DNA of 64,000 nt, from the IMG/VR virus record IMGVR_UViG_3300037424_000495, positions 1 to 64,000 of that record; one strand, written 5' to 3'. Positions 41,493 through 64,000 of this stretch are shown here, in pieces. The notes beneath the pieces are model-generated. The model was not told the DNA's origin. It saw only the letters and a list, made by a program, of their open reading frames with translations, and searched no databases. Source of the stretch: a virus (Duplodnaviria > Heunggongvirae > Uroviricota > Caudoviricetes). The translations under genes were made by a program, and so were the position numbers. Within the stretch, counting starts at the first letter, position 1, and every line of letters begins with the position of its first letter.

Positions 41493-42404
41493 ATGTCCTC
41501 AACTATTTCAAGTCTGACTAATCGCGGACTAATAAGTCCACCGACATGGCTGCCTGATAACATCGTCTTCGAGGGTGTGCAAGGAAGCAATGCCTACGGT
41601 GTGGCAGTTGACACGTCCGACTTTGATATTATTGGCTTCTGTATTCCGCCGAAAGATTTGATCTTCCCGCATCTTGCAGGCGAGATTGAAGGTTTTGGAC
41701 GCCAAAAGAAACGCTTTGTCTGCTACCAGAAGCACCATGTTCGCGACCAGCAAGCACAGAATGGAGCCGGGCGTGAATATGATTTCAACGTCTACAACAT
41801 TGTCCACTATTTTAATCTGGCAATGCAGAATAATCCAAATATGCTAGCCAGCTTGTTTCTACCGGCCGATTGCATTCTTTTCACAACTCGAATCGGTGAG
41901 ATGATTCGCGACAAGAGGCATATCTTCTTACATAAAGGTGCATGGCACCGTTTCAAAGGCTATGCCTACAGTCAATTGTCTGAAATGGGTAAGAAACCCG
42001 ACTCTGGTAGCAAGCGGGAAGCCCTGGTGCAAAAGTTCGGTTTCGACGTAAAATTTGCGTATCATCTTGTCCGCTTAATGTTCGAGATAGAACAAATCTT
42101 AACTACCGGCGACCTCGATCTGCGAAGAAACGCAGAAGAACTAAAAGCGATTCGTCGTGGTGAGATACCCGAATCAGAGATTCGGAACTTTTTCGCCGAT
42201 AAAGAAAAGTTTCTCGAAGGTTTGTACGAGAAATCAAATCTGCCTTGGGGACCGCGTGAGGCAGAGATCAAGCAATTGCTCTTGGACTGTTTGGAAGAAC
42301 ATTATGGCAGCCTTGAAGATTGTGTCGTGACCGAAGCTGATCCGTTAAGAGCATTGCGTGAGATTGCGTCCATTGTCGATGACAACCGGCATCTGTTGAG
42401 GTAA
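41493..42404 (+). CDS. Pol-beta superfamily nucleotidyltransferase (RlaP/YcgL-like)
   Basis: GSNAYGVAVDTSDFDIIGF (GS..G......SDxD) nucleotidyltransferase motif. Confidence 0.55.
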   Translation: MSSTISSLTNRGLISPPTWLPDNIVFEGVQGSNAYGVAVDTSDFDIIGFCIPPKDLIFPHLAGEIEGFGRQKKRFVCYQKHHVRDQQAQNGAGREYDFNVYNIVHYFNLAMQNNPNMLASLFLPADCILFTTRIGEMIRDKRHIFLHKGAWHRFKGYAYSQLSEMGKKPDSGSKREALVQKFGFDVKFAYHLVRLMFEIEQILTTGDLDLRRNAEELKAIRRGEIPESEIRNFFADKEKFLEGLYEKSNLPWGPREAEIKQLLLDCLEEHYGSLEDCVVTEADPLRALREIASIVDDNRHLLR

Positions 42405-42407
42405 GGA

Positions 42408-42824
42408 ATGGCGCAGAGATTCAGGATTGGTTTGGGTCGAAACGACGATGAGACTTTCACGTTCGACGTAGTTCTCTACAAGAATCATCGTCAACTTCAA
42501 CGGTCTTATCGTCATTGTGCCAAGCAGGATCGCGGTGCCGAACCGAAGCGGACACGTATCGGTGCGTTCACCACTGAGTATTACTGGTCAAAGCATTCGC
42601 AAGAAATTGGGTCCATTCGATTTTCGACAGAACATCTGACTGAGAAGTTTATTGTCCACGAATCTACACACGCAGCATTGCATCTTGCCAGGTACATGGA
42701 CAAATATGCCGGTGGATTCAGGAGTAAACGTGCCCGCGAGGAGTTGGTGGCGATAGCCACGGATGTGATCTACATCGAGATTTGTCAGCACGTAAGAAAA
42801 CGAAAACTGAAGATAGGGCGGTGA
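42408..42824 (+). CDS. hypothetical protein
   Basis: ORF in track, immediately downstream of the NTase. Confidence 0.45.
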   Translation: MAQRFRIGLGRNDDETFTFDVVLYKNHRQLQRSYRHCAKQDRGAEPKRTRIGAFTTEYYWSKHSQEIGSIRFSTEHLTEKFIVHESTHAALHLARYMDKYAGGFRSKRAREELVAIATDVIYIEICQHVRKRKLKIGR

Positions 42825-42825
42825 A

Positions 42826-42996
42826 ATGATTATGACCGACTACACCAATGAAACATCAGAGCAATTGTTAACTGAATTAGTGCGCCTACGGCAAGAGATT
42901 CGATTGTGTCAAAGGCCAGTTGACCAGAAATGCAAGGACGCAGAGGTAATTTATGGCGTTTTGATGCAACGTGGTATCGATCCTGATTCACACTGA
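42826..42996 (+). CDS. small hypothetical protein (56 aa)
   Basis: MIMTDYTNETSEQLLTELVRLRQEIRLCQRP...; below the ORF-track cutoff; preferred over the antisense track ORF 42830-43204. Confidence 0.35.
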   Translation: MIMTDYTNETSEQLLTELVRLRQEIRLCQRPVDQKCKDAEVIYGVLMQRGIDPDSH

Positions 42997-42997
42997 A

Positions 42998-43531
42998 ATG
43001 ACTCGATCTACCCTCATCTATGAAGCGGAATTGTTTGCGCGTGAAGCACATGCGAGGCAGGTTCGTAAATACACGGGGATGCCATATATCGTCCACCCGA
43101 TGAACGTGGCCAAAATCGTGTCCGAAGTCACCGACGATCCAGTCACAATTGCCGTGGCATGGTTGCACGATACCGTGGAAGACACGAGTGTCACATTCGC
43201 CCAAATCGGAACACTGTTTGGCCGGGAAGTCGCTGACTTAGTGGCAGACGTGACGAACATCACGAAGAAGACAGACGGCAACCGCGCGTTTCGTAAGGCA
43301 TTGGAGCGGACCCATCTGGCGATGGCAGCCCCGAAAGCGAAAACTGTCAAGTTGGCGGACATGTTGGACAACATTCCCAGCACAGTGCAGTACGATCCAG
43401 GCTTCGCAGTTACTTACGTGGACGAGAAACGCCGGCTGCTGGGCTACCTACGCGCAGGCAATCGCACGCTTTGGGATCGTGCAGTGCGACTCATCGAACA
43501 GAGCACTGAACTTTTGAGGAGGAAGACATGA
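42998..43531 (+). CDS. HD-domain (p)ppGpp hydrolase, small alarmone hydrolase SpoT/Mesh1-like
   Basis: HARQVRKYTGMPYIVHP...AVAWLHDTVEDT...FGREVADLVADVT matches the RelA/SpoT HD hydrolase signature. Confidence 0.7.
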   Translation: MTRSTLIYEAELFAREAHARQVRKYTGMPYIVHPMNVAKIVSEVTDDPVTIAVAWLHDTVEDTSVTFAQIGTLFGREVADLVADVTNITKKTDGNRAFRKALERTHLAMAAPKAKTVKLADMLDNIPSTVQYDPGFAVTYVDEKRRLLGYLRAGNRTLWDRAVRLIEQSTELLRRKT

Positions 43532-43708
43532 ATTTAACCCGCGAGAAACTACTGGAATTGATTCGACGTTGGAATTATGCGAGTGAGGTAGATCACCGTA
43601 TCAAAGAATTGAATCAATACGGTAGTGCTGCCAGTGGCTCCCAACAGGTAATCGACGCCGCACTCGACGATGTGCTTGAAATTCTTAACGAAAGGCCAGT
43701 GCAATGAC
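43529..43708 (+). CDS. small hypothetical protein (59 aa)
   Basis: GAGGAGG RBS; ATGA overlap with the upstream stop. Confidence 0.4.
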
Positions 43709-43717
43709 TATTTCAAG

Positions 43718-44092
43718 TCACTCCCGGCGCTTCGCGAGTATAGGGACACCTTCGGAGAGAAGCCGGTCTAATTCCGTCCGGGGTATTTTCCAGCGACCAC
43801 TTGAATCCTTGACACCTTTGATATCGCCCTGAATGCACAGTTGGCGGATAGTCCAAGCAGACCGACTAAGATAAACGCCGGCTGCGGCTGCATTCAAGTA
43901 GACAGCCCTCGGTTTAGGCACATCACTTACATGCGAGAGGATTGTGTCATTTAACTGTTCAACATGTTTAATATGTTGCATCTGTTCAAGAAGAACATTG
44001 TTAAAAGTGTCATAAACAGTGTCACGCACAGTGTCACGAATAATTTGTCTTAATAAATCGTCAATAGTTTGTGTAGTCATATTAGCCTCCAT
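43718..44092 (-). CDS. excisionase/AlpA-like HTH DNA-binding protein
   Basis: RAVYLNAAAAGVYLSRSAWTIRQLCIQGDIKGVKDSSGRWKIPRTELDRLL helix-turn-helix (Xis family); the lone minus-strand gene in a + strand block. Confidence 0.6.
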   Translation of the reverse strand: MEANMTTQTIDDLLRQIIRDTVRDTVYDTFNNVLLEQMQHIKHVEQLNDTILSHVSDVPKPRAVYLNAAAAGVYLSRSAWTIRQLCIQGDIKGVKDSSGRWKIPRTELDRLLSEGVPILAKRRE

Positions 44093-44163
44093 GTCATTTA
44101 TTGTAATCGCTTCCTAAATTCTGTAAAGCTAAATTCTGAGAGCGTTTAAACGCGCTGCATAAC

Positions 44164-44892
44164 ATGACAAAAAGAAATCCAAAACAAGACGGCAGTAATT
44201 TATTCGATTGTATACCGCAGATCGGCCCCTGTCCAATCGGCTGCAACGCTTGCTTCTACAACCGGCCCGGTGCATTCTATCTCCCAATCGATCAACCCAG
44301 CATCCCAACGTCTGAGGAAGTAGGTGATGGAATTGTGCGAATGAATTGCGGCAACGATAGCAATAATCAACGCGATCTTGTAATTGAGACTGCTAAGCAA
44401 TACAAGCACGCTTTCTTCAACACCAGTATTCCACGTTTTGACTTTCCTGGCCCTGTCGTTTGGACCGCAAATCCTTGTGAGGAGCAATATGTGCGCATCC
44501 CGCCTGCATTGCAATGCGAGATTCCCAGCAACTTGATGTTTATTCGTTTGCGAGTATCAAGCACAAATCTTTTTCGCATTAAGTTGGCTGCCGAATGGTT
44601 CAACGCAAAACAAGTGCCAGTTGTCTTAACATTCATGGCTTATTATGAGACGGAGCCAATGGTGCCAACTGACGTACTCACCGCTGTCGGTGGACCGTGC
44701 TACGAATGGAAAGTACGTCACATCAATTCATATTTCTGTCCTACCCCTGCGTTCATTCGGTATGTCATGAGTCTCTTTAAAGGCAACCGCCTTGTATCAT
44801 ACTGTGGCAGCCTCGAAGGATCATACTGCCGACTGTGTCTAAACTGCGAAACATATTACCACCAGGCAGTTAAACGAATGAAGGGCGAGTAA
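44164..44892 (+). CDS. hypothetical protein
   Basis: ORF in track. Confidence 0.45.
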   Translation: MTKRNPKQDGSNLFDCIPQIGPCPIGCNACFYNRPGAFYLPIDQPSIPTSEEVGDGIVRMNCGNDSNNQRDLVIETAKQYKHAFFNTSIPRFDFPGPVVWTANPCEEQYVRIPPALQCEIPSNLMFIRLRVSSTNLFRIKLAAEWFNAKQVPVVLTFMAYYETEPMVPTDVLTAVGGPCYEWKVRHINSYFCPTPAFIRYVMSLFKGNRLVSYCGSLEGSYCRLCLNCETYYHQAVKRMKGE

Positions 44893-45413
44893 TGCGGCGA
44901 ATCAATATCTTCGGCGGTCCTGGTGTCGGTAAATCAACACTGGCCGCTCAAATCTTTGGACATTTGCGTCAACAAGGTCAATCAGCCGAATTGGTTCAAG
45001 AATGGTTTAAAACTTGGGCCTATGCCGGCCATCAAGCTAAATCATTTGATTACGTCTATGCTTTTGCCAACCAATTACATGCCGAGGACCAATTGCTGCA
45101 AGCAGGCGTCAAGATAATTATTTCTGACAGTCCGATGTACTTGCAGTGCATTTATGCGTATCGCCATAAATTGCCGTTTGCAGGTGAACTTTTGCAAATC
45201 GCAAAAAGGTTTGAAGCAACCTATCCCTCTATCAATTTTGTTATCGACCGGCCTCAATTTCAAGTCTACGAACAAGCAGGTCGCTATGAAACTCTTGACC
45301 AAGCGATAGAAATGGACCGTTTCATTGTGCAATTATTGGATGACTTTTGGGCCATTCCGTTTAAACGTGTTCGACCAGGTGACTTAAATGCAATACTCAA
45401 GGAGCTTGTATAA
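44892..45413 (+). CDS. P-loop nucleoside/nucleotide kinase-like protein
   Basis: Walker A INIFGGPGVGKSTLA close to the N-terminus; ~170 aa size typical of dNMP kinases. Confidence 0.55.
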   Translation: MRRINIFGGPGVGKSTLAAQIFGHLRQQGQSAELVQEWFKTWAYAGHQAKSFDYVYAFANQLHAEDQLLQAGVKIIISDSPMYLQCIYAYRHKLPFAGELLQIAKRFEATYPSINFVIDRPQFQVYEQAGRYETLDQAIEMDRFIVQLLDDFWAIPFKRVRPGDLNAILKELV

Positions 45414-45415
45414 AC

Positions 45416-46120
45416 ATGTATAAATATCTTTTGATTCTCTGTTTGGTATTTATTGGCTGCCAAGAGCCAGCGAAACCTAAGTCGCCACAGCCCGATCCAC
45501 TGCGAACCTTGCAGACAGATATACGACACATTGCGCACGTCCGCCCGAGCGGTAGTGCCGCAAATCAGCAAGTGGCCAATTATCTTGCTCGCGAGTTGCA
45601 AAAATCCGGCTTCCAAGTTACACGTCAACCTTTTAATAAAGGTACGAACATTGTCGGTATTCGCCGTGGATCTTCAGCCCGGACTATCATTATTGGCAGC
45701 CATTATGATAGCGTGAACTGTCCAGGAGCCGACGATAACGCTTCCGGTTGTGCTGTAAATCTACTTGTTGCTCGGCAGCTTATAAAGCAGAAACTCAATC
45801 ACACATTGACTATTATCTTCTTTGACGCTGAAGAAATTGGACTTGTTGGATCAAATTACTACGCCAAGTCGATGACAGCAAAATGCGACTTGATGATTAA
45901 CCTCGACATGGTAGGCAATCTTCATGTCTCAAGTACACCGGACGCCATATTCAACGACCTCTACCGTAAATATCCGTGGGCACGCAACATTTCTTTTAGA
46001 ACCGGCGACGCTCCAAGCGACCACACACACCGTTCAATGCGAAAGGCATTCCCGTCGTCTGGGTCTTTACTGGCACACATCCTCGTTACCATGAATCAAC
46101 AGATGTGCCTTCAAGTTTAA
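45416..46120 (+). CDS. M28-family zinc aminopeptidase lipoprotein
   Basis: Lipobox LVFIGC; M28 motifs IIGSHYDS, GADDNASG, FFDAEEIGLVGS, NLDMVG. Confidence 0.7.
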   Translation: MYKYLLILCLVFIGCQEPAKPKSPQPDPLRTLQTDIRHIAHVRPSGSAANQQVANYLARELQKSGFQVTRQPFNKGTNIVGIRRGSSARTIIIGSHYDSVNCPGADDNASGCAVNLLVARQLIKQKLNHTLTIIFFDAEEIGLVGSNYYAKSMTAKCDLMINLDMVGNLHVSSTPDAIFNDLYRKYPWARNISFRTGDAPSDHTHRSMRKAFPSSGSLLAHILVTMNQQMCLQV

Positions 46121-46237
46121 ACTACAGCGGAATGATTCTAATTTCGCAGTATGTTTGCGACATTGCACGCAGCTTCGATAAACAAATAAATACTACCTTC
46201 CTCAACTCTCTTCAGCCTTTAACCAACGAGGTATTCA

Positions 46238-48020: not shown

Positions 48021-48668
48021 ATGTCAGAAGTCACAATCACCGTTGAACGTATTGAGGCCATTAAACCGCATCCAAATGCGGACAAAATGGAAATTGCCGA
48101 AGTAGCCGGCACTCAAACCCTTGTTGGCAAAGACCAATTTAAGGTTGGTGATTTAGCAGTCTATTTTCCACCTGACATTTTAATCCCCGGAGAAGTCTCC
48201 GAGGCTCTAGGTGTCGCAAAATATCTCAAGACCGCTCTCTATGGCGGCTTGCGTGTGCCTTGTCGCGTGGCGGCTTGCCGACTACGTGGCGTGCCGAGCT
48301 ATGGCTTTGCTCAACCGTTGACGGTTTTGGGAACTGTTGATCTACGCCAGATTCATGTCGGCAAAGATGTAACTGAAACCTTTCGTGGCCTCAAGTACGA
48401 GCCAGTGGTTAAGGTTCAGCGTGGGCACGGTGGCGGCACAGGTGAAGTCTGGGGTGGCTTGGCTCCCGAACCAATTAACTTCCACCGTTACACTGACATT
48501 CAGCATTACCGCAAATACAGGCATTTGCTTGCGACAGAGACGCCAGTGCGCATAACCGAAAAAGTACACGGTTGCCTAATGTTCCAGGAACGTATCACAA
48601 TGGTAGACGGGTCCAAGAAAAAGATTGGACACACGTCCGCATTGGTGATTTTGTTCTTGGGGTTGTGA
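48021..48668 (+). CDS. RNA ligase N-terminal segment: tRNA-binding (Myf/EMAP-like) domain, motif I lysine, start of intein
   Basis: IKPHPNADKMEIAEV...VGDLAVYFPPD tRNA-binding fold; EKVHG (ligase motif I) followed by intein block A CLMFQERITMVDGSKKKI; ORF stops shortly after an A5 run. Confidence 0.6.
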   Translation: MSEVTITVERIEAIKPHPNADKMEIAEVAGTQTLVGKDQFKVGDLAVYFPPDILIPGEVSEALGVAKYLKTALYGGLRVPCRVAACRLRGVPSYGFAQPLTVLGTVDLRQIHVGKDVTETFRGLKYEPVVKVQRGHGGGTGEVWGGLAPEPINFHRYTDIQHYRKYRHLLATETPVRITEKVHGCLMFQERITMVDGSKKKIGHTSALVILFLGL

Positions 48669-49639
48669 ATGGACAAGTCGTTCCGAGCCAAGTATTAAAC
48701 GTCTTTAATAACGGTCGCAGCGACCGCTGGCTCAAGGTGACATTCACACGGCGACTTGCGGGTCGGGGCGGCAACAATGTTGGCACAATACATTGCACAC
48801 CGAATCACTGCTTCTGGACGCCGGATAAAAATGACTACACACCAGCCAGTGAGTTGCGTGTTGGAAATCTCGTCAATTTACTTCGCTCTGACACCGATCT
48901 AACCCCAGTCCAGCACGCTATCTTGCCACCGACCGCAACACATTACAAGCCGCTTCTAGTCTCGCAGCGTGTTGTCGCTATTGAAGAATACATTGCTCCA
49001 CGAGCAAACCGCTATGACATTGAAACCGAAACACATAATTACTTCGCTAATGGTGTTTTGACTCACAATTCTAATTCGCGCGTGGGGCTTCTGAAAGTTG
49101 ATGGCGAATGGCAATTTGTTGCCGGCTCCCATAAGACTGCCCGCAAGCAGATTGATCCTGAAGGGCGAGAATCCGTGTACTGGTCTCCACTTCAGGATTT
49201 TAATGTGTTGCGGATGCTTACCGATATGTGCAATGAAGCCAACGATATTATTCTATTCGGTGAGTTATACGGTCCTGGAGTTCAAGACTTAGACTATGGG
49301 ATTCCTGCCGGTGACATTGGTTGGCGGATGTTTGATATCACTGCGAATGGAGAATACTTGGACTGGGGTCTCATTGCATTCTTATCCATGCACTACGATG
49401 TGCCCACTGTTCCGCTGCTTTATTCAGGTCCATTCAAACGGGAGTTGATCGACGAATTGACTTGTGGCCCGACGACTGTCGTCTCGGGGACCGAGATCAA
49501 ATCCAAATTCAAAGGTCGTGAAGGGATCGTCATTACACCATTGGTAGAAGAGACATGCAGCATTGGCCGTCTAATTCTAAAGTCTGTCAGCGCGGATTAT
49601 TTAGACAGGAAGGGAGCAGAAGACAATGGTGACATCTAA
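48572..49639 (+). CDS. remainder of the mini-intein plus the RNA ligase nucleotidyltransferase domain (Rnl2-like), in the -1 frame relative to the upstream segment
   Basis: Intein block B TPNHCFWT and C-terminal YDIETETHNYFANGVLTHN|S; extein motifs ILFGELYG (III), GWRMFDI (IV), KGREGIVIT (V), LILKSVSADY (VI). Confidence 0.6.
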   Translation: MPNVPGTYHNGRRVQEKDWTHVRIGDFVLGVVNGQVVPSQVLNVFNNGRSDRWLKVTFTRRLAGRGGNNVGTIHCTPNHCFWTPDKNDYTPASELRVGNLVNLLRSDTDLTPVQHAILPPTATHYKPLLVSQRVVAIEEYIAPRANRYDIETETHNYFANGVLTHNSNSRVGLLKVDGEWQFVAGSHKTARKQIDPEGRESVYWSPLQDFNVLRMLTDMCNEANDIILFGELYGPGVQDLDYGIPAGDIGWRMFDITANGEYLDWGLIAFLSMHYDVPTVPLLYSGPFKRELIDELTCGPTTVVSGTEIKSKFKGREGIVITPLVEETCSIGRLILKSVSADYLDRKGAEDNGDI

Positions 49640-50510
49640 CACGTGCTTAACATCTGACGATCAATTGTTCACAAAAAATCGAAGCCGTGAAGCTCCATCT
49701 TTTGCAAATATCAATCTTCTCGGCCGATGTAATGTAGACTGTTATTTCTGCCTGGGAAAAGATATCCCAGACTTGCTTGCGCCTCATAACCAATTGACAA
49801 CACACTTTTTGCAGTGGAATAATTGGCTGGATTTCCTGATAACGTGCCAGCAACACAACATTCGTAAGCTGTATGTCACCGGCCAGAACACCGACAGTTT
49901 ACAGTATCGGTATCTTGCAGAATTGATTAACTATTTGCACAGGTATGGCTTCCAAGTCGGACTGCGAACAAATGGCTACTTGGCATTGAAGCAAATGGCG
50001 GCCATAAACCAATGCGACTTATCGGTTGGCTACTCAATTCATACGCTCAAGCCAGATATAAACTTTCAGTTGATGAAACACCGCCGGCTACCAGAATGGC
50101 AAACTATTTTGGAAAAGACAAAGCGGCCACGAGTACAAATTGTTGTTACAAGACACAATGCTTCCGAAGTATTTGACATTATTAAATGGCTGTCACAATT
50201 TCCACATCTACGTTATGTACAAGTGCGGCGTGTCAGCAGCGACACTCGGCGTGAGGAATTAGCGCCCGACGCATTGGCTTATGATACGTTACTCTCGCAG
50301 GTACAGGATTTGTATCCACGAGAAAGTGTTCTATGGGGCACAGCAAGCATTTATCGAATACATGGGCTGCCAGTATGCTTCTGGCAAACAACAGCCACAA
50401 GTATCAACAGTTTCAACTACTTTACAGACGGCACTATCAGCCGTGAGTATTTTATTGTTGAAGGCTATAAGAAAGCCTTGCAAGGAGCCAAGTGTGACAC
50501 CAAAGTCTAA
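49626..50510 (+). CDS. radical SAM enzyme
   Basis: CNVDCYFC (CxxxCxxC) cluster-binding motif near the N-terminus. Confidence 0.65.
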   Translation: MVTSNTCLTSDDQLFTKNRSREAPSFANINLLGRCNVDCYFCLGKDIPDLLAPHNQLTTHFLQWNNWLDFLITCQQHNIRKLYVTGQNTDSLQYRYLAELINYLHRYGFQVGLRTNGYLALKQMAAINQCDLSVGYSIHTLKPDINFQLMKHRRLPEWQTILEKTKRPRVQIVVTRHNASEVFDIIKWLSQFPHLRYVQVRRVSSDTRREELAPDALAYDTLLSQVQDLYPRESVLWGTASIYRIHGLPVCFWQTTATSINSFNYFTDGTISREYFIVEGYKKALQGAKCDTKV

Positions 50511-54222: not shown

Positions 54223-55224
54223 ATGCGTAAACCTAAATCTCTTAGCTACTCAGCACTTACACTATGGGAAACAGATCGAGACGAATTTTATATTCGCTAT
54301 CTTTCGGATCGCGCCGCTCCACGCCCTCCGCAAGAGAAGCCAATGGCAGTTGGATCGGCTTTTGACGCCTATGTTAAAGCTAATCTCCACGCTGCTTTGT
54401 TTGGAGCCGGCTCGAACCCGCAATTCGAGTTTAAAACCATCTTTGAGGCCCAAGTCGAGAAACAATGCCGTGATTTCGCCTTGGAAGCTGGCAAAGTAGT
54501 CTATGACGCATACAAATTGACCGGTGCTTACGATGATTTGTTGAAACTTTTACAGCAGTCCATTGAGCCACCACGCTTTGAGTTCACTGTCACCGGCAAC
54601 ATTGGCGGTGCGCCTTTCCTCGGCAAGCCGGATTGCCGTTTCGTCCTCGACTTGGGACAAGGACGTATTTCATGTATCTTCGATTTCAAAGTTCACGGCT
54701 ATTGCGGCAAATACAATACATCCCCGTCTAAAGGTTACATGGTTTGTTTAGACGGATTCAAAGCGGCCAAACCAAGCAAGAGTCACGGTAAAGAACACGC
54801 GATGTTCTTACCCTATGACTTCCGTGGCTTTACCATCAATTCCGGCTACATGGAATTTTGCAACAGTGAATACGCCGATCAACTTTGTCTCTATGGCTGG
54901 TTACTAGGCGAAAAACCAGGCGATGAAAATGTAGTATGCGGCATTGAAGAAATGTGCGCTAAATTCATGGGTGCAGATGTGCCCCCAACATTCCGATACG
55001 CACGCCATCGAGGACGTGTCAAAGCCGACTACCAACTTGCTTTGGAAGCCCGTGTTAAGAAATGCTGGGATGCAATCACAGACGGGTACATCTTCTCCGA
55101 CTTGTCTCCCGAAGATAGTCAAGCCCGTTGTGAAGTGCTTGATCAAATGGCCGTTACTCTTATGCCAGATGGCTCAGCTTTAGACAAATGGTTTTCAGAA
55201 GTCACGAAACCGTCGAGGTTTTAA
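54223..55224 (+). CDS. PD-(D/E)xK nuclease superfamily-like protein (Cas4/RecB-like exonuclease fold)
   Basis: N-terminal LSYSALTLWETDRDEFYIRYL and CIFDFKVHGYCGK (D...D.K) pattern; weak. Confidence 0.4.
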   Translation: MRKPKSLSYSALTLWETDRDEFYIRYLSDRAAPRPPQEKPMAVGSAFDAYVKANLHAALFGAGSNPQFEFKTIFEAQVEKQCRDFALEAGKVVYDAYKLTGAYDDLLKLLQQSIEPPRFEFTVTGNIGGAPFLGKPDCRFVLDLGQGRISCIFDFKVHGYCGKYNTSPSKGYMVCLDGFKAAKPSKSHGKEHAMFLPYDFRGFTINSGYMEFCNSEYADQLCLYGWLLGEKPGDENVVCGIEEMCAKFMGADVPPTFRYARHRGRVKADYQLALEARVKKCWDAITDGYIFSDLSPEDSQARCEVLDQMAVTLMPDGSALDKWFSEVTKPSRF

Positions 55225-57926: not shown

Positions 57927-58853
57927 ATGATGACACACCAATTGATTAACGCCGACTGTCTCGAATACCTGCAAGAATCCAATGATACTTGGGCTACTAT
58001 CGTCGCAGACCCACCTGATAATATCGGGTTGCGTTATAATCAATACAAAGACAAACTACCCGACGATGATTATATTGCACAACTTGATGAATGGCTGTCA
58101 CTCTTCATCAAACGTGCCTCAACAGTCTGGTTTTCATTTAACGCTCGCTGGACGATTCCAATGGGCGATATCGTGTCGTGCATTCAAAACGCCAACCCGA
58201 CATTAGAAGTCAAGCCCTGCGTGCAGACATTCACATTCGGGCAGCATTGTCACTCCGACCTTGGCAACAACCACCGACCACTTTGGCGCTTACAATGGCC
58301 GAATGCTTCATTGTTCCCTGACGCCATACGTGTGCCCTCTTGGCGGCAAGAAAATGGGGATAAGCGGGCTGATCCACGGGGAAGAGTGCCGGGGGACGTA
58401 GCCTCATTTGAACAATATGAACCTGCTGTACTAAGTCTCCGCATTGAAGATGTCATTCGCATTGTTCAGTCTAAAGATACGAATGCGGCACTCACTAAGC
58501 GATACGGTGTTTCAGACGCCGCTATAGATTGCATCCGCAACGGTCAACTCGCGCTAAGCGACTTATTTGATTACCCCCGTGTAACCGGAAATAGCAAACA
58601 ACGTCGCAATTGGCACCCGACACAGTTAAATGAGGGACTTGTCGAGCGATGTATCAAACTCACAACACCAGCTACCAGCACGGTTCTCGACCCATTCGGC
58701 GGCACTGGAACCACACTTAGAGTGTGTAAACGTCTTGGAATTCCCTGTTCCTTGATTGAATTGGACCCTAGTTATTGTGCCAAGATCGCAGAAGAGCATT
58801 GCATGGTGCAAACCGATGCCATCACTTGGAAGTTAAGCCATGGCGAAGGATGA
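57927..58853 (+). CDS. DNA methyltransferase-like protein (beta-class order) with atypical DPPD in place of DPPY
   Basis: IVADPPDNIG (motif IV position) then C-terminal VLDPFGGTGTTLRVCKRLGIPCSLIEL (motif I). Confidence 0.55.
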   Translation: MMTHQLINADCLEYLQESNDTWATIVADPPDNIGLRYNQYKDKLPDDDYIAQLDEWLSLFIKRASTVWFSFNARWTIPMGDIVSCIQNANPTLEVKPCVQTFTFGQHCHSDLGNNHRPLWRLQWPNASLFPDAIRVPSWRQENGDKRADPRGRVPGDVASFEQYEPAVLSLRIEDVIRIVQSKDTNAALTKRYGVSDAAIDCIRNGQLALSDLFDYPRVTGNSKQRRNWHPTQLNEGLVERCIKLTTPATSTVLDPFGGTGTTLRVCKRLGIPCSLIELDPSYCAKIAEEHCMVQTDAITWKLSHGEG

Positions 58854-58930: not shown

Positions 58931-59311
58931 GTGCGCAGCCGACCGTTAAAATACCGCGAATCCCTGTGGACAATAAACAAGAAAACGATTGATCCCGCTA
59001 TGCAATGTACACGTTGTGACGGTACGGGCTTTCTCAACCTGGAACAGGTTGATGGCGACATTCTCGCTAAATTCACAGAAACAGGCGACCATCAAATTAT
59101 TCTCGATTGGATCGACGAAATGGCCATCAAAGCCATGCGAGCGGGTGGAAGTTGCACATGCTCGATCCATCCTCAGTGGGTGCCTTGTTCCTACTGCGAA
59201 GTCCTGCACGATGTTCAAATCTGCAATTGCTGCAGCGACGGTGAAACATGGTATGGCACACCGGGTGAACATGATTGGAACAATTCTAACGATCCTAAAG
59301 GCTGCCGCTAA
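58931..59311 (+). CDS. Cys-rich zinc-binding hypothetical protein
   Basis: CTRCDGTG ... CSIHPQWVPCSYCEVLHDVQICNCCSDG. Confidence 0.4.
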   Translation: MRSRPLKYRESLWTINKKTIDPAMQCTRCDGTGFLNLEQVDGDILAKFTETGDHQIILDWIDEMAIKAMRAGGSCTCSIHPQWVPCSYCEVLHDVQICNCCSDGETWYGTPGEHDWNNSNDPKGCR

Positions 59312-60105: not shown

Positions 60106-60312
60106 ATGCCGAATTACGATCTGCAATGCAGCGCGTGTGGTACATACTCCGAAGAATTCCAGGCAATGAATTTGCCTCAGCCCACGCGCTGCGAGAAATG
60201 TGGGAAGAAAAAAGTACGCAGGGTAATTTTAAAACCCGTCGCAACCTACAATTCTTACTCGCCAATGCACCCGCGTAAGAAACGTGGTACGGGTATCGGA
60301 CGTAAGAATTAG
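60106..60312 (+). CDS. FmdB-family zinc-ribbon protein
   Basis: MPNYDLQCSACGTYSEEF...RCEKCG. Confidence 0.5.
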   Translation: MPNYDLQCSACGTYSEEFQAMNLPQPTRCEKCGKKKVRRVILKPVATYNSYSPMHPRKKRGTGIGRKN

Positions 60313-60326
60313 CGGAGTAGGAATCG

Positions 60327-61106
60327 ATGGAATTCACGCGAAAAAAGAAACGTGGTCAAAACCGTCGAGTCCAAAGAATGTGGCTCTCCGTCGAAGGCTA
60401 CAGAATTGTTTGGCGCAAGGAGGTCTGCGGTATACCAGTCCCCGCCCGCTTTCAGGCTACTGTTCGCATCATGCTTCCTGAAAGCAAGCAAATGTGGGAC
60501 TTCACAGAGCGCCGTCTTTTCAAGACACTCGCAAAAGCGCAGGAATCCTGCGAACGTCATCACCGACTTTGGCTGCAAGCATGTGACGCTACAGGCGTGC
60601 GAAGTTTATTAAAAATCTTCGGCAAACTGCCCTTTGGAATTCCACTTTGGGTGCGAAAGAAACTTAACCGCACAGTTTATGAAATCCTTTCACAACCGCG
60701 TAGTGCCAAATACCTGGAGGAAGAGGAAAGGGAAGAGGAAGAAAACAAATGCTTGAGCGACCATACAAAAACCTTGAAGACTTCCGTCGAAAGCATTTCT
60801 TCTGGCGTCCCAACGCTGCAAACGACCCAATCAAATGGCCTTGTCTGCTCTGCAACAGCCGAGGATGGGATTACGATCCCGACGACCCGCCGGACCCCAT
60901 CGAAGGCAACAAAATGCGAAGACACCTCGCATGTCCCGCCTGTGAAAAAAGTGGGTGCGGTCCCCGTGAAGCGGTCGTCAAAGCGTACCGTGAAGCAATC
61001 ACGGCGTGGAAAAGAAGAAAAGACGAACACAACCAACTTGTCAAAATCCGCAAAACGGCCCTTAAAAAGCTCTCGAAAGAAGAAATCACCGCCCTCCGCT
61101 TGCTAG
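60327..61106 (+). CDS. hypothetical protein with low-complexity Lys/Ser-rich C-terminus (true end uncertain)
   Basis: Track ORF; the second half overlaps a better-looking ORF in another frame. Confidence 0.3.
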   Translation: MEFTRKKKRGQNRRVQRMWLSVEGYRIVWRKEVCGIPVPARFQATVRIMLPESKQMWDFTERRLFKTLAKAQESCERHHRLWLQACDATGVRSLLKIFGKLPFGIPLWVRKKLNRTVYEILSQPRSAKYLEEEEREEEENKCLSDHTKTLKTSVESISSGVPTLQTTQSNGLVCSATAEDGITIPTTRRTPSKATKCEDTSHVPPVKKVGAVPVKRSSKRTVKQSRRGKEEKTNTTNLSKSAKRPLKSSRKKKSPPSAC

Positions 61107-61114
61107 GAGTCTGA
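60749..61114 (+). CDS. zinc-finger hypothetical protein
   Basis: GGAAGAGGAAGAAAAC RBS then ATG; CLLCNS...CPACEKSGC. Confidence 0.45.
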   Translation: MLERPYKNLEDFRRKHFFWRPNAANDPIKWPCLLCNSRGWDYDPDDPPDPIEGNKMRRHLACPACEKSGCGPREAVVKAYREAITAWKRRKDEHNQLVKIRKTALKKLSKEEITALRLLGV

Positions 61115-61456
61115 TGTGCGAACGTGTTACTACGAAATAAAGGTTCAAGACTCCGACAACTTATTCATTGGCGGCAATGACACAACACAACTGTTGCAGC
61201 GCGATCGAACTTATTATCTGGCGACCAATCTCGGGATTGTTTTAAAAATCGCATTCCGAAATGAAACATGGCGTATTAAGCAAGTGGCCGGACCACCTGC
61301 TCGCCGCGATAAAGCACCGGACGGTGGTTGGTCAGACTGTGTTTACCACCCAGATAAAGTAACTGCCTATGTATTCGGTGTCGGGCATGGATACACCAAA
61401 CCCGATATTGCTATACGCACGATCCCTGGTTATCTCGTCCCTAGAATATAACAATC

Positions 61457-61987
61457 ATGTCTGAATTCTGCCCACGTTGTGCGTCACCGCTTGAAACGAC
61501 TTCAGATCCTAGCCGTCTATGTGATGTCTGCGGTTGGTTCGGCGACGCAATTGAAGCACTCGATAAGCCTCCCAAACCTGATGCCGTCAACCCTGTCTTA
61601 GCGGCCGCTCAATGTCTTGAACTATACCGTGAAGTATGTCGTAAAGAACTAATTGCAGAAATGATTTACGACGCCGGCAACGCCACGGAAGCCGAATTAC
61701 GCCATATTCACAACACCCGCCGAAACGCCGTCAATTCAATAATTGAACTCTTTGCTGCGTTTCAAAAACCTTCTACCCTGCCAAACCCGCCAAAGTACCG
61801 CATTCCGCGAGCATCTAACGGCCTCGTTCCTTGGCCAAATGAGTGGGCTGACCGCCACTTCAACGCCTGCAAGGAACCATGTGACATGCTGATCGGGCCA
61901 TGCGCCTGTGGTGCATGGCACACTGAGTCTGAACCTTGGGTCCAAGCTTTGTTGACAAAATACAACGCAGAAATTGTTGATGAATAA
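61457..61987 (+). CDS. hypothetical protein with N-terminal zinc ribbon
   Basis: CPRCASP...CDVCGW. Confidence 0.4.
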   Translation: MSEFCPRCASPLETTSDPSRLCDVCGWFGDAIEALDKPPKPDAVNPVLAAAQCLELYREVCRKELIAEMIYDAGNATEAELRHIHNTRRNAVNSIIELFAAFQKPSTLPNPPKYRIPRASNGLVPWPNEWADRHFNACKEPCDMLIGPCACGAWHTESEPWVQALLTKYNAEIVDE

Positions 61988-62045
61988 CTCCAATTTCTCC
62001 GTAGCCTGTTGATTCAACTGTAGAAGCAAAAGACACCAAAGATTC

Positions 62046-62981
62046 ATGAAGGTTCTACGAATGCGAAGAAAATTGTGCCCACACTGTGAAGAATTGCTTA
62101 AAACCGATGGTTGCGGTAACGCATCTTGCAACGGTTGTGGTTGGTCTGGCGACTTGCGTGACGGTTTAAAAGAGCCGAGTCTGCCAGCAGCACCTAAAAT
62201 GCCGTATGTCAGTATTGACATCGAAACGACTGGCTTAGACCCAGATACTTGCCAGATACTTGAATTCGGAGCCATTATTGATGACTGGAAGACTCCTATC
62301 AACAAGTTGCCTGTCTTCCGGCGTGTACTACTTTATGAAAAAGTGTCTGGCAGCCCGTTTGCAATGGCGTTAAATGCTAGTTTGCTCAAATTTATTGCAA
62401 ATGCACCAAACTCACTGCAATTACAATGTCTGGAAGGTGCAGTTTCAACATGGCTTGATCAATGTAGCAAACAAGATAAGCAACATGGCCAACAGATTAC
62501 TGCACTGCTACGTTCCCGTTTTCCGGACGCTAGAATACTTTGGTGGACGATCCCTGACAGACTGTTCGCAATTGAATCAATTGCGCAATATCCAAACATT
62601 CTCCGATTAGCGGCGAATCCGCCTGGAATAAGCTGTTCTTGCAAACCTGAACTCTTAGGCCCTCTATTCCAAAAGTGGCTTATAGCACATGGTTTGAATC
62701 CGTATGACGTGCAAGTGGCAGGTAAGAATTTTGCCGGTTTTGACGCACAGTTTCTTTGGAAACATCCAAATTTCAAATGTGTCAAATTTCGGCACCGTGT
62801 AATCGATCCGGCAATCCTCTATTGGCGACCGCTCGAAGACGACCGCTTACCGGACAGCAAAACTTGTTCACAACGATCAGGTGGAGACGGCCACGTTGCT
62901 CACACAGCCGTGGACGATGCCCTAGCAGTTGTGTGGCAAGTACGCAAAGGAGTCAAGCGCGTCATCGAATTGGGATTTTAA
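62046..62981 (+). CDS. DnaQ/RNase T-like DEDDh 3'-5' exonuclease with N-terminal zinc ribbon
   Basis: CPHCEELL...CNGCGW; Exo I SIDIETTGLD; Exo III HTAVDDALAV. Confidence 0.7.
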   Translation: MKVLRMRRKLCPHCEELLKTDGCGNASCNGCGWSGDLRDGLKEPSLPAAPKMPYVSIDIETTGLDPDTCQILEFGAIIDDWKTPINKLPVFRRVLLYEKVSGSPFAMALNASLLKFIANAPNSLQLQCLEGAVSTWLDQCSKQDKQHGQQITALLRSRFPDARILWWTIPDRLFAIESIAQYPNILRLAANPPGISCSCKPELLGPLFQKWLIAHGLNPYDVQVAGKNFAGFDAQFLWKHPNFKCVKFRHRVIDPAILYWRPLEDDRLPDSKTCSQRSGGDGHVAHTAVDDALAVVWQVRKGVKRVIELGF

Positions 62982-63017
62982 ATTATCAACAATGAAAGGT
63001 TTGAAAGGTACGAATCA

Positions 63018-63329
63018 ATGAGCCAACTTTATGTACAAGCGATCCAACAACTTTTAGGCAATACTCGCTCAACTGACTTTACCACGTTAGTGAGTCAACT
63101 CAATGAATTGCGTAACACTTTGAAGAACAAAACCACAACATTGATGCAAGCCACCACCACCCCGGAAATGGTGATTAAATATGCACCTCGGCTTCAAGAA
63201 CTTGCAGATGAAGACGCCACAGTCCTTACAGTCCTGAACGAGCTAAGCAAACTTATCGATGCGACAGCCGAAAGAAGCTCCCGCATTTTGAAGAAGCTTA
63301 CCAAGAAACTCCCTAAGTCGAATACTTAA
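63018..63329 (+). CDS. hypothetical protein
   Basis: ORF in track. Confidence 0.4.
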   Translation: MSQLYVQAIQQLLGNTRSTDFTTLVSQLNELRNTLKNKTTTLMQATTTPEMVIKYAPRLQELADEDATVLTVLNELSKLIDATAERSSRILKKLTKKLPKSNT

Positions 63330-63406
63330 ATATGCGGCGGGCCGAAGAGAATGGGTTATCTGGTTAAGGTTTACCCCACTCTCACTAACTTGCCCGCCCA
63401 TTTATG

Positions 63407-63530
63407 AACACTGTAGCTCAGTTGGTAGAGCGCTAAAACCGCTTGCCACCACTAGCCTGAAAGGGCCGAATGGTTAAGCGTTATCCATTTCTAACGGAGA
63501 GGTCGCAGGTTCAAGTCCTGCCAGTGTTCA
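63407..63530 (+). ncRNA. tRNA-like RNA 1 (Y-RNA-like tRNA mimic candidate) with ~50-nt insertion in place of a normal anticodon arm
   Basis: 7-bp acceptor-like stem AACACTG/CAGTGTT; D-arm TAGCTCAGTTGGTAGAGC; T-arm GCAGGTTCAAGTCCTGC; ~67 nt between D- and T-arms where a tRNA has ~22. Confidence 0.55.
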
Positions 63531-63535
63531 CTATG

Positions 63536-63666
63536 TACGTCGTAGCTCAGTCTGGTAGAGCAAAAGTTAGTATGCCGCTGTCCGCTCTTTTACCCGGCAA
63601 CGGGTCGATAGGCCAGCGTTATCATTGGGAACTTTAGGTCGCAGGTTCAAATCCTGCCGACGTGCC
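63536..63666 (+). ncRNA. tRNA-like RNA 2 (Y-RNA-like tRNA mimic candidate) with ~56-nt structured insertion in the anticodon loop
   Basis: Acceptor-like stem TACGTCG/CGACGTG; D-arm TAGCTCAGTCTGGTAGAGC; anticodon-stem-like AAAGT/ACTTT enclosing a 63-nt loop with a CCCG-GCAA-CGGG hairpin; T-arm GCAGGTTCAAATCCTGC. Confidence 0.55.
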
Positions 63667-63701
63667 TTAATTTTGGGTCGAATTTTAACCCGGAGACTAC
63701 T

Positions 63702-64000
63702 ATGAATTACGCCCAGCATGTTTCATCCCGCGTTACACCGCAATCAGAGCCGATCCCTGGAAAGCCCCAAGTGGCAAACAACGGTGGCGGCTACAGTTTC
63801 ACTCTTGATTGCTGGGGCCAACTTCAACGCTTCTTAATCCTTGGCTCTGAAGGCGGCACATATTATGTGTCCGAACATAAGCTAACTATCGATAACGCCA
63901 ACTGCGTATTGGCGTGCGGCAATGCTGACTCGACCCGTGCTGTTGAGTTGATTGTATCTGTGAGTCAAGCTGGTCGAGCGCCGAAGAATGACCCTGCCAT
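63702..64000 (+). CDS. rsr: Ro60/TROVE-domain protein (Rsr-like), 3'-truncated by the window end
   Basis: [34 protein letters not shown]...[12 protein letters not shown] closely parallels the Ro60 N-terminus ([22 protein letters not shown]...EGRAAKQEPTLFALA, recalled from memory). Confidence 0.8.
   Translation, partial: [99 protein letters not shown]

What the first reader, a model, noticed from the sequence alone, without database searches (positions are those of the whole stretch)
41493..64000. RNA-repair / RNA-conflict gene set: Rnl-type RNA ligase, RlaP-like nucleotidyltransferase, Ro60 and tRNA-mimic RNAs
Within ~22 kb the phage encodes an RNA ligase with a tRNA-binding domain, a Pol-beta-superfamily NTase of the kind found in RNA-repair operons, two 3'-5' DEDDh exonucleases, a Ro60 homologue and two tRNA-like RNAs. 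Such components co-occur in bacterial RNA-repair systems (Rtc/Ro/RlaP neighbourhoods). The phage may use them to counter host tRNA-cleaving defences such as anticodon nucleases or PrrC/RloC-like systems.
Basis: inference. Interest (0 to 1): 0.6.

Follow-up and report, generated by a model that had tools for sequence, protein, structure and literature searches.

The report
Phage Ro60, tRNA-shaped Y RNAs, RNA-repair genes
An uncultivated tailed phage carries a real Ro60 gene with three partner RNAs, two of them shaped like tRNAs with the Ro60-binding helix in place of the anticodon loop; it also carries scattered RNA-end enzymes (RlaP, and an RNA ligase that is broken as assembled), a toolkit already described for phages and not one operon.

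Summary
Most listed components exist. RlaP nucleotidyltransferase lies at 41493-42404. A DraRnl/NgrRnl-type (Rnl5) RNA ligase lies at 48021-49639. One DEDDh exonuclease lies at 62046-62981. Ro60 starts at 63702 and runs off the window. Two tRNA-like RNAs lie at 63407-63529 and 63536-63665, and a third, hairpin Y RNA lies at 63335-63399.

- Only one DEDDh exonuclease was found.
- The ligase's "tRNA-binding domain" is the Rnl5 N-terminal OB domain.
- The ligase is split in motif I by a 165-codon mini-intein that carries 2 extra bases, so no full-length precursor is encoded as assembled.

Related phages keep the ligase and Ro60 about 15 kb apart. They lack RlaP and the HD hydrolase, so this is a loose toolkit of the kind described for jumbo phages, not an operon.

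The solid unit is Ro60 plus its Y RNAs. The tRNA-like RNAs have a true 7-bp acceptor stem, D arm and T arm, and the Ro60-binding helix is closed by a loop where the anticodon loop would be. This is a circular permutation of published YrlA. The same architecture sits beside Ro60 in 49 of 79 genomes from many phyla, with strong covariation. I found no prior description of it.

The parts
41493..42404 (+). RlaP-family Pol-beta nucleotidyltransferase (303 aa)
   Evidence: Pfam PF10127 E 3e-16 and PHROG 388 E 1.6e-45. The Pol-beta motif GSNAYGVAVDTSDFD is readable in the translation. Homologues occur in 563 phage records. The gene is absent from the syntenic relatives L089 and L090.
42971..43531 (+). 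RelA/SpoT-type HD hydrolase (small alarmone hydrolase-like). Possible accessory; not shown to be linked to the rest.
   Evidence: Pfam HD_4 E 3.7e-18; TIGR00691 spoT_relA E 2.2e-29 over the hydrolase part; PHROG 990.
44892..45413 (+). P-loop kinase-like protein (AAA_28), the conserved upstream neighbour of the RNA ligase in relatives
   Evidence: Pfam AAA_28 E 1.6e-12. AlphaFold model pLDDT 93.6. Best PDB folds are thymidylate kinases, NadR and PSTK. The gene lies next to the ligase in L089, L171 and L172.
48021..48572 (+). RNA ligase N-extein: Rnl5-type OB domain and motif I up to ...EKVHG (catalytic Lys181)
   Evidence: PF21189; match to NgrRnl 5cot residues 9-129; junction confirmed by intein-free 373-378 aa homologues at 75-81% identity over 100% of the spliced protein.
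48573..49069 (+). Mini-intein inserted in ligase motif I (Cys1 ... CTPNH ... THN, then Ser+1). It is 497 nt, which is 165 codons plus 2 extra bases (AC at about 48633-48634 in GGACACACGTCC).
   Evidence: PF14890; alignment with the intact intein-bearing homologues P0143 and P0166; DNA and frame arithmetic. The truncated 215-aa N-ORF product (P0167) is on record from both JGI and Logan.
49070..49639 (+). RNA ligase C-extein (rest of the nucleotidyltransferase domain), read in the other frame
   Evidence: PF09414 E 2.3e-14; TIGR02306 covers 6-341 of 341 positions on the spliced protein.
62046..62981 (+). DnaQ-like DEDDh 3'-5' exonuclease with an N-terminal zinc ribbon; the only one found in the region
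   Evidence: Pfam RNase_T E 3e-5; PHROG 192 E 2.8e-14. Motifs SIDIETTG, NFAGFD and HTAVDDA are readable in the translation.
63335..63399 (+). Hairpin Y RNA: 5' GGGCCGAAG-P2-GGUUAUC ... P2'-CACUAACUUGCCC 3'
   Evidence: Rfam sbRNA (a model of nematode stem-bulge RNAs; these are Y RNA homologues by my own knowledge) scores 33.9 bits, E 0.0015. The homologous RNA in L003 scores 42.9 bits, above the gathering score. Fold energy is -26.4 kcal/mol, z -2.6. The same motif order occurs 66 times in 52 fetched loci, most of them Ro60 loci.
63407..63529 (+). tRNA-shaped Y RNA A: 7-bp acceptor stem, D arm, Ro60-binding module closed by a GAAA loop, UUAUC, small hairpin, T arm
   Evidence: Models R1 (102 bits) and R2 (87.6 bits); compensatory changes against L003 and L004; covariation across the family.
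63536..63665 (+). tRNA-shaped Y RNA B: acceptor stem, D arm, 6-bp anticodon-stem equivalent, Ro60-binding module, T arm
   Evidence: Rfam tRNA 46.4 bits with 62 nt in place of the anticodon loop; R1 95.9 bits and R2 76.7 bits.
63702..64000 (+). Start of the Ro60 (Rsr) gene; it runs off the window and is 530 aa on the contig
   Evidence: TROVE 0.0013 on the 99 aa inside the window. The full protein gives TROVE 1.2e-47 and vWA_Ro60 2.8e-63 and NF041674 Rsr 5.5e-158.

Best explanation
The region is the early/accessory arm of a tailed phage. Its nearest relatives are phage-like contigs binned with Thermoguttaceae (Planctomycetota).

One real functional unit lies at the right end: a Ro60 (Rsr) gene preceded on the same strand by three Y RNAs. 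Each RNA carries the classical Ro60-binding module: helix P1 (GCCCG/CGGGC), an asymmetric internal loop (ACAMCUU opposite CGAAG), a covarying helix P2, and then UUAUC. One RNA is a plain hairpin. The other two are complete tRNA-shaped molecules in which this module replaces the anticodon loop, so the free 5' and 3' ends lie in a 7-bp acceptor stem.

Inferred mechanism:
- The RNAs are cut out of a longer transcript by RNase P and a 3' tRNA-processing activity.
- They may receive CCA.
- They load onto the outer face of the Ro60 ring.
- They use the tRNA-like elbow and acceptor end to bring a tRNA-recognising or exonucleolytic partner to Ro60, by analogy with Y RNA tethering PNPase to Rsr in Deinococcus. 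This would handle damaged or misfolded RNA during infection.

The other RNA enzymes are separate accessory genes that fit the published phage RNA-repair toolkit. RlaP can add 1-2 nucleotides to damaged RNA 3' ends. The Rnl5-type ligase seals 3'-OH/5'-P nicks in duplex RNA. They are not co-organised with Ro60. RlaP is strain-specific. The ligase can only be made here if the 2-nt frame error in its intein is a sequencing artefact or is bypassed.
For: Shown:
- Ro60 identity.
- The Y-RNA module is present in all three RNAs.
- The tRNA-shaped architecture rests on an independent set of 72 sequences: 97% of cells paired, 26 of 30 pairs with changes on both sides, acceptor stem 7 of 7 pairs and P2 9 of 9 pairs covarying, 0 of 500 shuffles as high, and slid controls at 37-52% paired. 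A first alignment gave the same picture.
- P2 forms with its own partner at 7 bp or more in 44% of sequences, against 9% with mismatched partners.
- In L003 a single tRNA-shaped unit is flanked by hairpin Y RNAs, so a permuted reading across two units is impossible there.
- The RNAs lie beside Ro60 in 39 of the 83 sources searched (81 of them metagenome Ro60 loci) and in 49 of 79 genome loci.
- No promoter-like or terminator-like site lies around the RNAs.
- RlaP, ligase, intein and exonuclease identities.
- Synteny shows that RlaP and the HD gene are variable, while the ligase and Ro60 are conserved about 15 kb apart.

From the literature:
- Y RNA tethers Rsr to PNPase (abstracts).
- M. smegmatis YrlA is cut by RNase P and CCA-tailed.
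- RlaP activity.
- Phage RNA-repair toolkits.
Against: - There is no expression, processing or binding data. RNase P/Z processing, CCA addition and Ro60 binding are inferred.
- RNA B departs from the GNCGAA motif (it reads GUCGAU).
- The effector recruited by the tRNA-like domain is unknown.
- No RtcB or Pnkp-type end-healing enzyme was found. The kinase-like neighbour of the ligase looks like a thymidylate kinase rather than a polynucleotide kinase.
- The ligase is conserved inside a replication and nucleotide-metabolism block, which fits a DNA/RNA-junction role as well as RNA repair.
- As assembled, the ligase reading frame is broken.
Confidence: 0.6

Rival explanations
1. One reading: RlaP, RNA ligase, exonucleases, Ro60 and the tRNA mimics form one cooperating system that repairs tRNAs cut by host anticodon nucleases (PrrC/RloC-like, PARIS, retron effectors).
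For: All the families are ones linked to RNA repair in comparative genomics. RlaP is proposed to restore nucleotides removed by RloC before ligation by 5'-phosphate ligases. In another phage the closest RlaP sits beside a peptidyl-tRNA hydrolase, a metallophosphoesterase and a tRNA cluster.
Against: - There is no conserved linkage: the relatives lack RlaP and the HD gene.
- No enzyme that heals 2',3'-cyclic phosphate and 5'-OH ends was identified near these genes.
- The ligase frame is broken.
- Only one exonuclease was found.
- Rnl5 ligases seal nicks in duplexes and have not been shown to repair anticodon loops (my own knowledge of DraRnl/NgrRnl).
Confidence: 0.25
2. The ligase (with its kinase-like neighbour) serves replication or nucleotide metabolism, for example sealing nicks at RNA-DNA junctions. 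RlaP, the HD hydrolase and Ro60 are unrelated cargo. The clustering is only the usual packing of accessory genes in a phage early region.
For: In L089, L090, L171 and L172 the ligase lies between DNA polymerase A, DNA ligase and NT5C on one side and DeoC and DNA methylases on the other. It lies directly after the TMK-like AAA_28 gene in L089, L171 and L172. All genes share one strand, so co-orientation carries no information.
Against: The phage already has an ATP-dependent DNA ligase. TIGR02306/Rnl5 enzymes need an RNA 3'-OH strand (my own knowledge). Ligase and RlaP distributions track each other in jumbo phages.
Confidence: 0.3
3. The two tRNA-like elements are ordinary phage tRNA genes with introns, or decayed tRNA pseudogenes, unrelated to Ro60.
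For: Rfam's tRNA model matches one of them. Phages often carry tRNAs. Relatives have a real tRNA-Glu 2 kb downstream.
Against: - ARAGORN finds no tRNA.
- The insert carries the conserved Ro60-binding motifs and a covarying helix.
- Removing the insert leaves no anticodon loop.
- The same architecture follows Ro60 across phyla.
Confidence: 0.03
4. The RNAs are really canonical, circularly permuted YrlA read across the junction of A and B: T arm of A, a closed acceptor-like stem, then D arm of B.
For: Rfam YrlA aligns to 63501-63561 across the junction (31 bits). In mycobacteriophage LinStu the junction reading is the better one.
Against: The score is far below the family's 69-bit gathering score, and the junction stem has mismatches. 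Each unit's own ends form a perfect 7-8 bp stem with compensatory changes. L003 has a single unit.
Confidence: 0.05

Closest known systems
Bacterial and phage Ro60 (Rsr) with YrlA/YrlB Y RNAs (Chen et al. 2014, PMC4201824; Wang et al. 2018, bioRxiv 10.1101/312249; Rfam RF02553)
   Same: The Ro60 gene has several Y RNAs upstream on the same strand. The GNCGAAN0-1G motif and Ro60-binding helix are present. A tRNA-like D arm, T arm and acceptor stem are present, and a smaller hairpin Y RNA sits alongside. Ro60 is already annotated in 370 phage records.
   Different: Published YrlA has its ends in the Ro60-binding helix, and its acceptor stem is closed by a loop with no free CCA end. Here the acceptor stem is open and the Ro60 helix is closed. 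The RF02553 model scores only 31 bits against a 69-bit threshold. None of 20 further Ro60 loci of this clade reached the YrlA threshold.
[quoted passage not shown]
   Same: A Ro60-bound RNA whose tRNA-like domain ends in an open 7-bp acceptor stem.
   Different: There it is a two-piece RNA made by cutting a permuted precursor. Here it is a single chain with native tRNA connectivity.
Metazoan Y RNAs and nematode sbRNAs (RF01656)
   Same: Both strands of the Ro60 site are conserved (GGNCCGAAG ... UUAUC ... CUUGNCC). The sbRNA model hits these RNAs, above its gathering score in several loci.
   Different: Those RNAs have no tRNA-like domain, and the context is eukaryotic rather than phage or bacterial.
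Rnl5 nick-sealing RNA ligases (Deinococcus DraRnl DRB0094, Naegleria NgrRnl, PDB 5cot)
   Same: N-terminal OB domain plus C-terminal nucleotidyltransferase domain. TIGR02306 covers the whole model, and the N domain matches 5cot.
   Different: The gene is interrupted in motif I by a mini-intein carrying a 2-nt frame error. The score (141.8) is just under the equivalog cut-off (151.15).
Phage RNA-repair toolkits (T4 Pnkp/Rnl1; jumbo-phage sets of RtcB/Rnl, RlaP, TROVE, kinases and phosphoesterases; Iyer et al. 2021, PMC7824862)
   Same: RNA ligase, RlaP and TROVE with a tRNA-like partner all occur in one phage.
   Different: There is no RtcB, no recognisable Pnkp or 2H/HD end-healing enzyme, and no compact operon. 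RlaP is not conserved in sister phages.

Membership tests
Ro60/Rsr | TROVE (HEAT-repeat ring) domain followed by a vWA domain | tested here: met
   TROVE 1.2e-47 and vWA_Ro60 2.8e-63 on the full protein from the same contig; NF041674 Rsr 526.7 bits, below the equivalog cut-off of 900.
Ro60/Rsr | Y RNA genes close by on the same strand | tested here: met
   Three RNAs lie at 63335-63665, directly upstream of the start codon at 63702.
Y RNA (Ro60-binding module) | Conserved helix with the GNCGAAN0-1G strand and a pairing CUUGNCC strand | tested here: met
   The hairpin has GCCGAAG and RNA A has GCCGAAUG. RNA B deviates (GUCGAUAG). P1 is 99% paired and P2 92% paired across 72 relatives.
Y RNA (Ro60-binding module) | Physical binding to Ro60 | not testable with these tools
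   Needs immunoprecipitation or a gel-shift assay.
YrlA (Rfam RF02553) | Order T arm, closed acceptor-like stem, D arm, with the RNA ends forming the Ro60 helix; score at or above 69 bits | tested here: not met
   Only a partial 31-bit match across the A/B junction. The units have D-to-T order with open acceptor stems.
tRNA | Anticodon stem with a 7-nt loop | tested here: not met
   ARAGORN finds none. Rfam tRNA aligns only with 62 nt in place of the loop.
tRNA | 7-bp acceptor stem, D arm and T arm with conserved loop residues | tested here: met
RlaP (PF10127) | Match above the Pfam gathering score, with the Pol-beta GS...DxD motif | tested here: met
   60.3 bits against a cut-off of 23. GSNAYGVAVDTSDFD is in the translation.
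RlaP (PF10127) | Gene adjacency to an RNA ligase (the basis of the family name) | tested here: not met
   The gene lies 5.6 kb from the ligase with nine unrelated called genes between them, and it is absent from relatives that keep the ligase.
Rnl5 / DRB0094 RNA ligase | N-terminal OB domain plus nucleotidyltransferase domain with the motif I lysine | tested here: met
   PF21189 plus PF09414; TIGR02306 covers 6-341 of 341 positions; EKVHG|SNS is restored on splicing and matches EKVHGTNS in intein-free homologues.
Rnl5 / DRB0094 RNA ligase | One intact reading frame | tested here: not met
   The intein is 165 codons plus 2 nt, giving two ORFs in different frames.
Intein (class 1 mini-intein) | Cys1, block B TxxH, C-terminal HN followed by Ser/Thr/Cys | tested here: met
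   CLMF..., CTPNH, and THN then S; PF14890 at 30.8 bits, below its cut-off of 35.8.
DEDDh exonuclease | ExoI DxE, ExoII and ExoIII Hx4D motifs | tested here: inconclusive
   The motifs are readable, but the Pfam match covers only the first 25 profile positions (25.1 bits against 24).
rtcB-rsr-yrlA RNA-repair operon | RtcB (and RtcA) next to rsr | tested here: not met
   No RtcB or RtcA family match among the genes flanking Ro60 on the contig or in its relatives, nor among the window ORFs scanned.

The most novel reading that the evidence does not exclude
The two tRNA-like RNAs belong to a large class of Ro60 partner RNAs that I could not find described. Members have genuine tRNA connectivity: open acceptor end, D arm and T arm, with the Ro60-binding helix closed by a loop in place of the anticodon loop. 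They often occur in tandem arrays of 2-5 units. The class is found from phages to Chloroflexota, Myxococcota, Armatimonadota, Verrucomicrobiota and others. These RNAs would be RNase P/Z substrates and CCA acceptors, so they could couple Ro60 to tRNA-handling enzymes or act as decoys for toxins that target tRNA. Tandem arrays of them would be the ancestral state from which the permuted YrlA arose (T arm of one unit plus D arm of the next), as the dimeric-tRNA hypothesis of Wang et al. proposed.
Probability: 0.45. Interest if true: 0.7.

Novelty: new variant of a known kind. Interest (0 to 1): 0.5.

Why it matters
As a gene set this adds one more phage, from a poorly sampled host lineage, to a known theme. 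That part is ordinary.

The RNA part may matter more. If many bacterial and phage Y RNAs have real tRNA ends, that changes which factors they could recruit: RNase P, the CCA-adding enzyme, perhaps synthetases or EF-Tu, and toxins that act on the acceptor end. It gives a concrete, testable route for the origin of permuted YrlA. It also supplies a covariance model that finds Ro60 partner RNAs in lineages where the Rfam YrlA model finds nothing.

The intein in motif I of an RNA ligase, with a frame error, is a caution against counting that ligase as active.

Tried and rejected
- Exact-match and protein scans of IMG/VR for the same or close phages found nothing. Megablast against GenBank phages found nothing.
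- I tested whether the AAA_28 protein beside the ligase is a polynucleotide kinase. The model is confident, but its best folds are thymidylate kinases, NadR and PSTK, so this is not supported and not excluded.
- I tested whether the HD protein is an RNA 3'-end-healing HD. It is a RelA/SpoT-type hydrolase.
- I first read the frame change as a -1 slip on GAAAAAG. Alignment with intact inteins places it at an extra AC further downstream, and the GTGA stop/start overlap carries no information.
- I looked for a conserved partner of RlaP in the 138-aa downstream gene. It shows no similarity to the equivalent gene of Xanthomonas phage Xoo-sp13.
- An independent assembly of the ligase region could not be fetched; only the Logan contig was returned.
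- The conserved Cys-rich 242-aa protein upstream of AAA_28 gave no family match.
- The MAFFT alignment put helix P2 out of register. This was solved with a seed of uniform geometry and model R2.

Full report
**What the window is.** PHROG matches identify a tailed phage: tape measure protein, primase, helicase, DNA polymerase, DNA methyltransferases and an ATP-dependent DNA ligase at 39242-40396. The window is part of a 75-kb contig assembled from SRR12684511. No near-identical record exists in GenBank phages or IMG/VR. The nearest relatives are syntenic phage-like contigs of 137-174 kb, one of them binned in a Thermoguttaceae (Planctomycetota) MAG.

**Check of the listed components.**
- The ORF at 41493-42404 is an RlaP-family nucleotidyltransferase (PF10127, 3e-16; PHROG 388, 1.6e-45).
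- The ORFs at 48021-48668 and 48572-49639 together encode an RNA ligase, described below.
- The ORF at 62046-62981 is a DnaQ-like DEDDh exonuclease with a zinc ribbon. The profile matches are weak, but the three Exo motifs are readable.
- No second DEDDh exonuclease turned up among the ORFs of 150 aa or more in the region.
- Ro60 starts at 63702 and leaves the window after 99 codons. On the contig it is a 530-aa protein with TROVE and vWA_Ro60 domains.
- ARAGORN finds no tRNA in the window. Rfam's tRNA model matches 63536-63665 with 62 nt in place of the anticodon loop.

**The ligase.**
- Family. The N-terminal part is the OB domain of the DraRnl/NgrRnl (Rnl5) family: PF21189 and a match to PDB 5cot. 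No tRNA_bind family match was returned.
- Intein. The reading frame runs ...ITEKVHG, then Cys, a 165-residue mini-intein (block B CTPNH, C-terminal THN), then Ser-Asn-Ser-Arg-Val-Gly....
- Splice junction. Removing the intein gives a 373-aa protein. It aligns over 100% of its length at 75-81% identity with intein-free 373-378 aa homologues. It covers the whole TIGR02306 (DRB0094) model at 141.8 bits against a cut-off of 151.
- Frame error. Two homologues keep an intact intein at the same site (P0143 and P0166). Against them the window reads DGSKKKIGH / VRIGDF with two extra bases (AC) in GGACACACGTCC. The intein is 497 nt, which is 165 codons plus 2 nt.
- Consequence. As assembled, the catalytic Lys181 and the rest of the nucleotidyltransferase domain lie in different frames.
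- Record of the truncated product. The 215-aa product is on record from both JGI and Logan. I could not fetch the second contig.
- Open point. Whether this is a real mutation, a population variant or an error is not settled.

**Gene organisation.**
- In the relatives L089, L090, L171 and L172 the ligase lies in a conserved block: DNA polymerase A, NT5C and DNA ligase upstream, and DeoC, SEC-C and DNA methylases downstream. In L089, L171 and L172 it lies directly after an AAA_28 gene.
- Ro60 lies about 15 kb further on in the same Thermoguttaceae-binned contig.
- RlaP, the HD protein and the M28 peptidase are absent from those relatives, so they belong to a variable island.
- The HD protein is a RelA/SpoT-type hydrolase (TIGR00691, 2.2e-29).
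- The AAA_28 protein models with pLDDT 93.6 and most resembles thymidylate kinases, NadR and PSTK. A role as a polynucleotide kinase is therefore not supported.
- No RtcB, RtcA or Pnkp was found. A calcineurin-like phosphoesterase lies 10 kb upstream at 30892-31686.
- RlaP homologues occur in 563 GenBank phage records, ligase homologues in 174, and Ro60 in 370.
- The combination has been described as a phage RNA-repair toolkit (PMC7824862). RlaP has since been shown to add 1-2 NMP to RNA 3' ends (PMC12776372).

**The RNAs.** The 366-nt gap before Ro60 holds three elements.
- 63335-63399 is a hairpin: GGGCCGAAG-P2-GGUUAUC-loop-P2'-CACUAACUUGCCC. It resembles metazoan Y RNAs closely enough to hit the Rfam model of nematode stem-bulge RNAs, which I know to be Y RNA homologues. 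That model scores 33.9 bits here and 42.9 bits, above its threshold, on the homologous RNA in L003.
- 63407-63529 and 63536-63665 each have a perfect 7-8 bp stem formed by their own ends, then UA, a canonical D arm, a long insert, a variable region and a canonical T arm.
- The insert reads ...P2-CACNACUU/A-GCCYG-loop-RGGGC-CGAAN-P2'-UUAUC. These are the two strands of the Ro60 site in reversed connectivity, closed by a loop.

**Why the tRNA-topology reading holds.**
- The syntenic phages L003 and L004 carry 4-5 such RNAs. The acceptor stems of the orthologous units differ by compensatory changes.
- A regex search, and then covariance model R1, found the same architecture next to Ro60 in 39 of the 83 sources searched. 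Eighty-one of these were metagenome Ro60 loci.
- R1 also found it in 49 of 79 genome loci, 94 units in all. These come from Chloroflexota, Myxococcota, Armatimonadota, Verrucomicrobiota, Gemmatimonadota, a complete Desulfonema magnum genome and others.
- Model R2 includes P2 and was seeded only from metagenome loci. I used it to align 72 hits, 67 of them from the genome set.
- In that alignment 97% of cells pair and 26 of 30 pairs show changes on both sides. All 7 acceptor pairs and all 9 P2 pairs covary. None of 500 shuffles reaches the observed values, and slid controls pair at 37-52%.
- P2 forms at 7 bp or more with its own partner in 44% of sequences, against 9% with partners from other sequences.
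- L003 has a single tRNA-shaped unit between hairpin Y RNAs, so a permuted reading across two units cannot apply there.

**Comparison with what is known.**
- Published YrlA is a circularly permuted tRNA mimic. Its ends form the Ro60 helix, and its acceptor stem is a closed loop without a free CCA end.
- M. smegmatis YrlA becomes open only after RNase P cleavage.
- Rfam's YrlA model gives only a 31-bit partial match across the A/B junction, against a threshold of 69. It gives nothing at threshold in 20 other Ro60 loci of this clade, where hairpin Y RNAs are detected instead.
- In mycobacteriophage LinStu the T arm, a 6-bp closed stem and the D arm lie between two Ro modules, so the permuted reading is right there. 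Gordonia phage Cashline is intermediate.
- This fits the dimeric-tRNA origin proposed by Wang et al., with tandem unpermuted units as the starting state.
- I found no paper in the searchable library that describes the unpermuted form. The 2020 Annual Review by Sim et al. was not available, so prior description cannot be excluded.

**Mechanism, with what is shown and what is inferred.**
- Shown: the gene and RNA identities, the RNA secondary structure by covariation, and the linkage of the RNAs to Ro60 across phyla.
- Inferred: co-transcription (no promoter-like or terminator-like sites), excision by RNase P and a 3' processing activity, possible CCA addition (none is encoded), binding to Ro60 through P1 and the internal loop, and recruitment of a partner through the tRNA-like domain, by analogy with Rsr-Y RNA-PNPase.
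- More weakly inferred: RlaP and the ligase could act on broken RNAs. A link to tRNA-cleaving defences is plausible from the literature but has no support from this locus's organisation.

**Verdict.** As a gene set this is a new member of a known kind. The tRNA-topology Y RNAs are, as far as I can tell, a new variant of a known kind, and they are the part worth following up.

Noticed in passing
L001:14019-14086 (same contig, about 3 kb beyond the window end): This is another tRNA-like element with acceptor stem, D arm and T arm, but its anticodon arm is only a 4-bp stem with a 4-nt loop. ARAGORN does not call it. At the same position, after the SPFH gene, the relatives L003 and L004 have a normal tRNA-Glu(UUC).
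   Followed up: partly
L001:12292-13971 (downstream of Ro60, outside the window); L003:12850-14196; L004:11933-13282: A 447-449 aa protein with an SPFH/Band 7 domain (1.2e-06) follows Ro60 in all four related contigs. It is preceded by an 88-90 aa ORF in L001, L002 and L004. It is a possible conserved partner of the Ro60 module.
   Followed up: partly
window 44164-44892: A Cys-rich 242-aa protein (CPIGCNAC near the N terminus) overlaps the start of the AAA_28 gene. It is 75% identical to the gene in the same position in L089. It matches no Pfam, PHROG or NCBIfam family.
   Followed up: partly
window 49626-50510: A radical SAM protein with weak similarity to MoaA and prokaryotic viperin models lies directly after the ligase. 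It is absent from that position in L089, L090, L171 and L172.
   Followed up: no
window 40897-41490 and 45416-46120: Two proteins have lipoprotein-like N termini (hydrophobic stretch followed by Cys). The second is an M28 peptidase, which is unusual cargo among early phage genes.
   Followed up: no
L003:9755-9837: ARAGORN calls a false tRNA-Asp(AUC) inside a tRNA-shaped Y RNA, taking the conserved UUAUC as an anticodon loop. Such RNAs may be mis-annotated as tRNAs in databases.
   Followed up: partly
L015, L038, L052, L067, L071, L079, L081, L082: Several Ro60 loci from metagenomes lie beside long arrays of ordinary tRNA genes (10 or more within 10 kb), on the same strand as Ro60.
   Followed up: no
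window 19820-20731, 31638-32534, 22446-24128, 36018-36986, 57927-58853: The window holds two ParB-like proteins and three DNA methyltransferases. With a DeoC aldolase and a nucleoside deoxyribosyltransferase-like protein, this points to heavy investment in DNA modification and nucleotide salvage.
   Followed up: no
window 54223-55224: A conserved 333-aa protein (also present in L003, L089 and L090) has GKPDCRF and FDFKVHG motifs that look like a PD-(D/E)XK nuclease, but no profile matches it.
   Followed up: no
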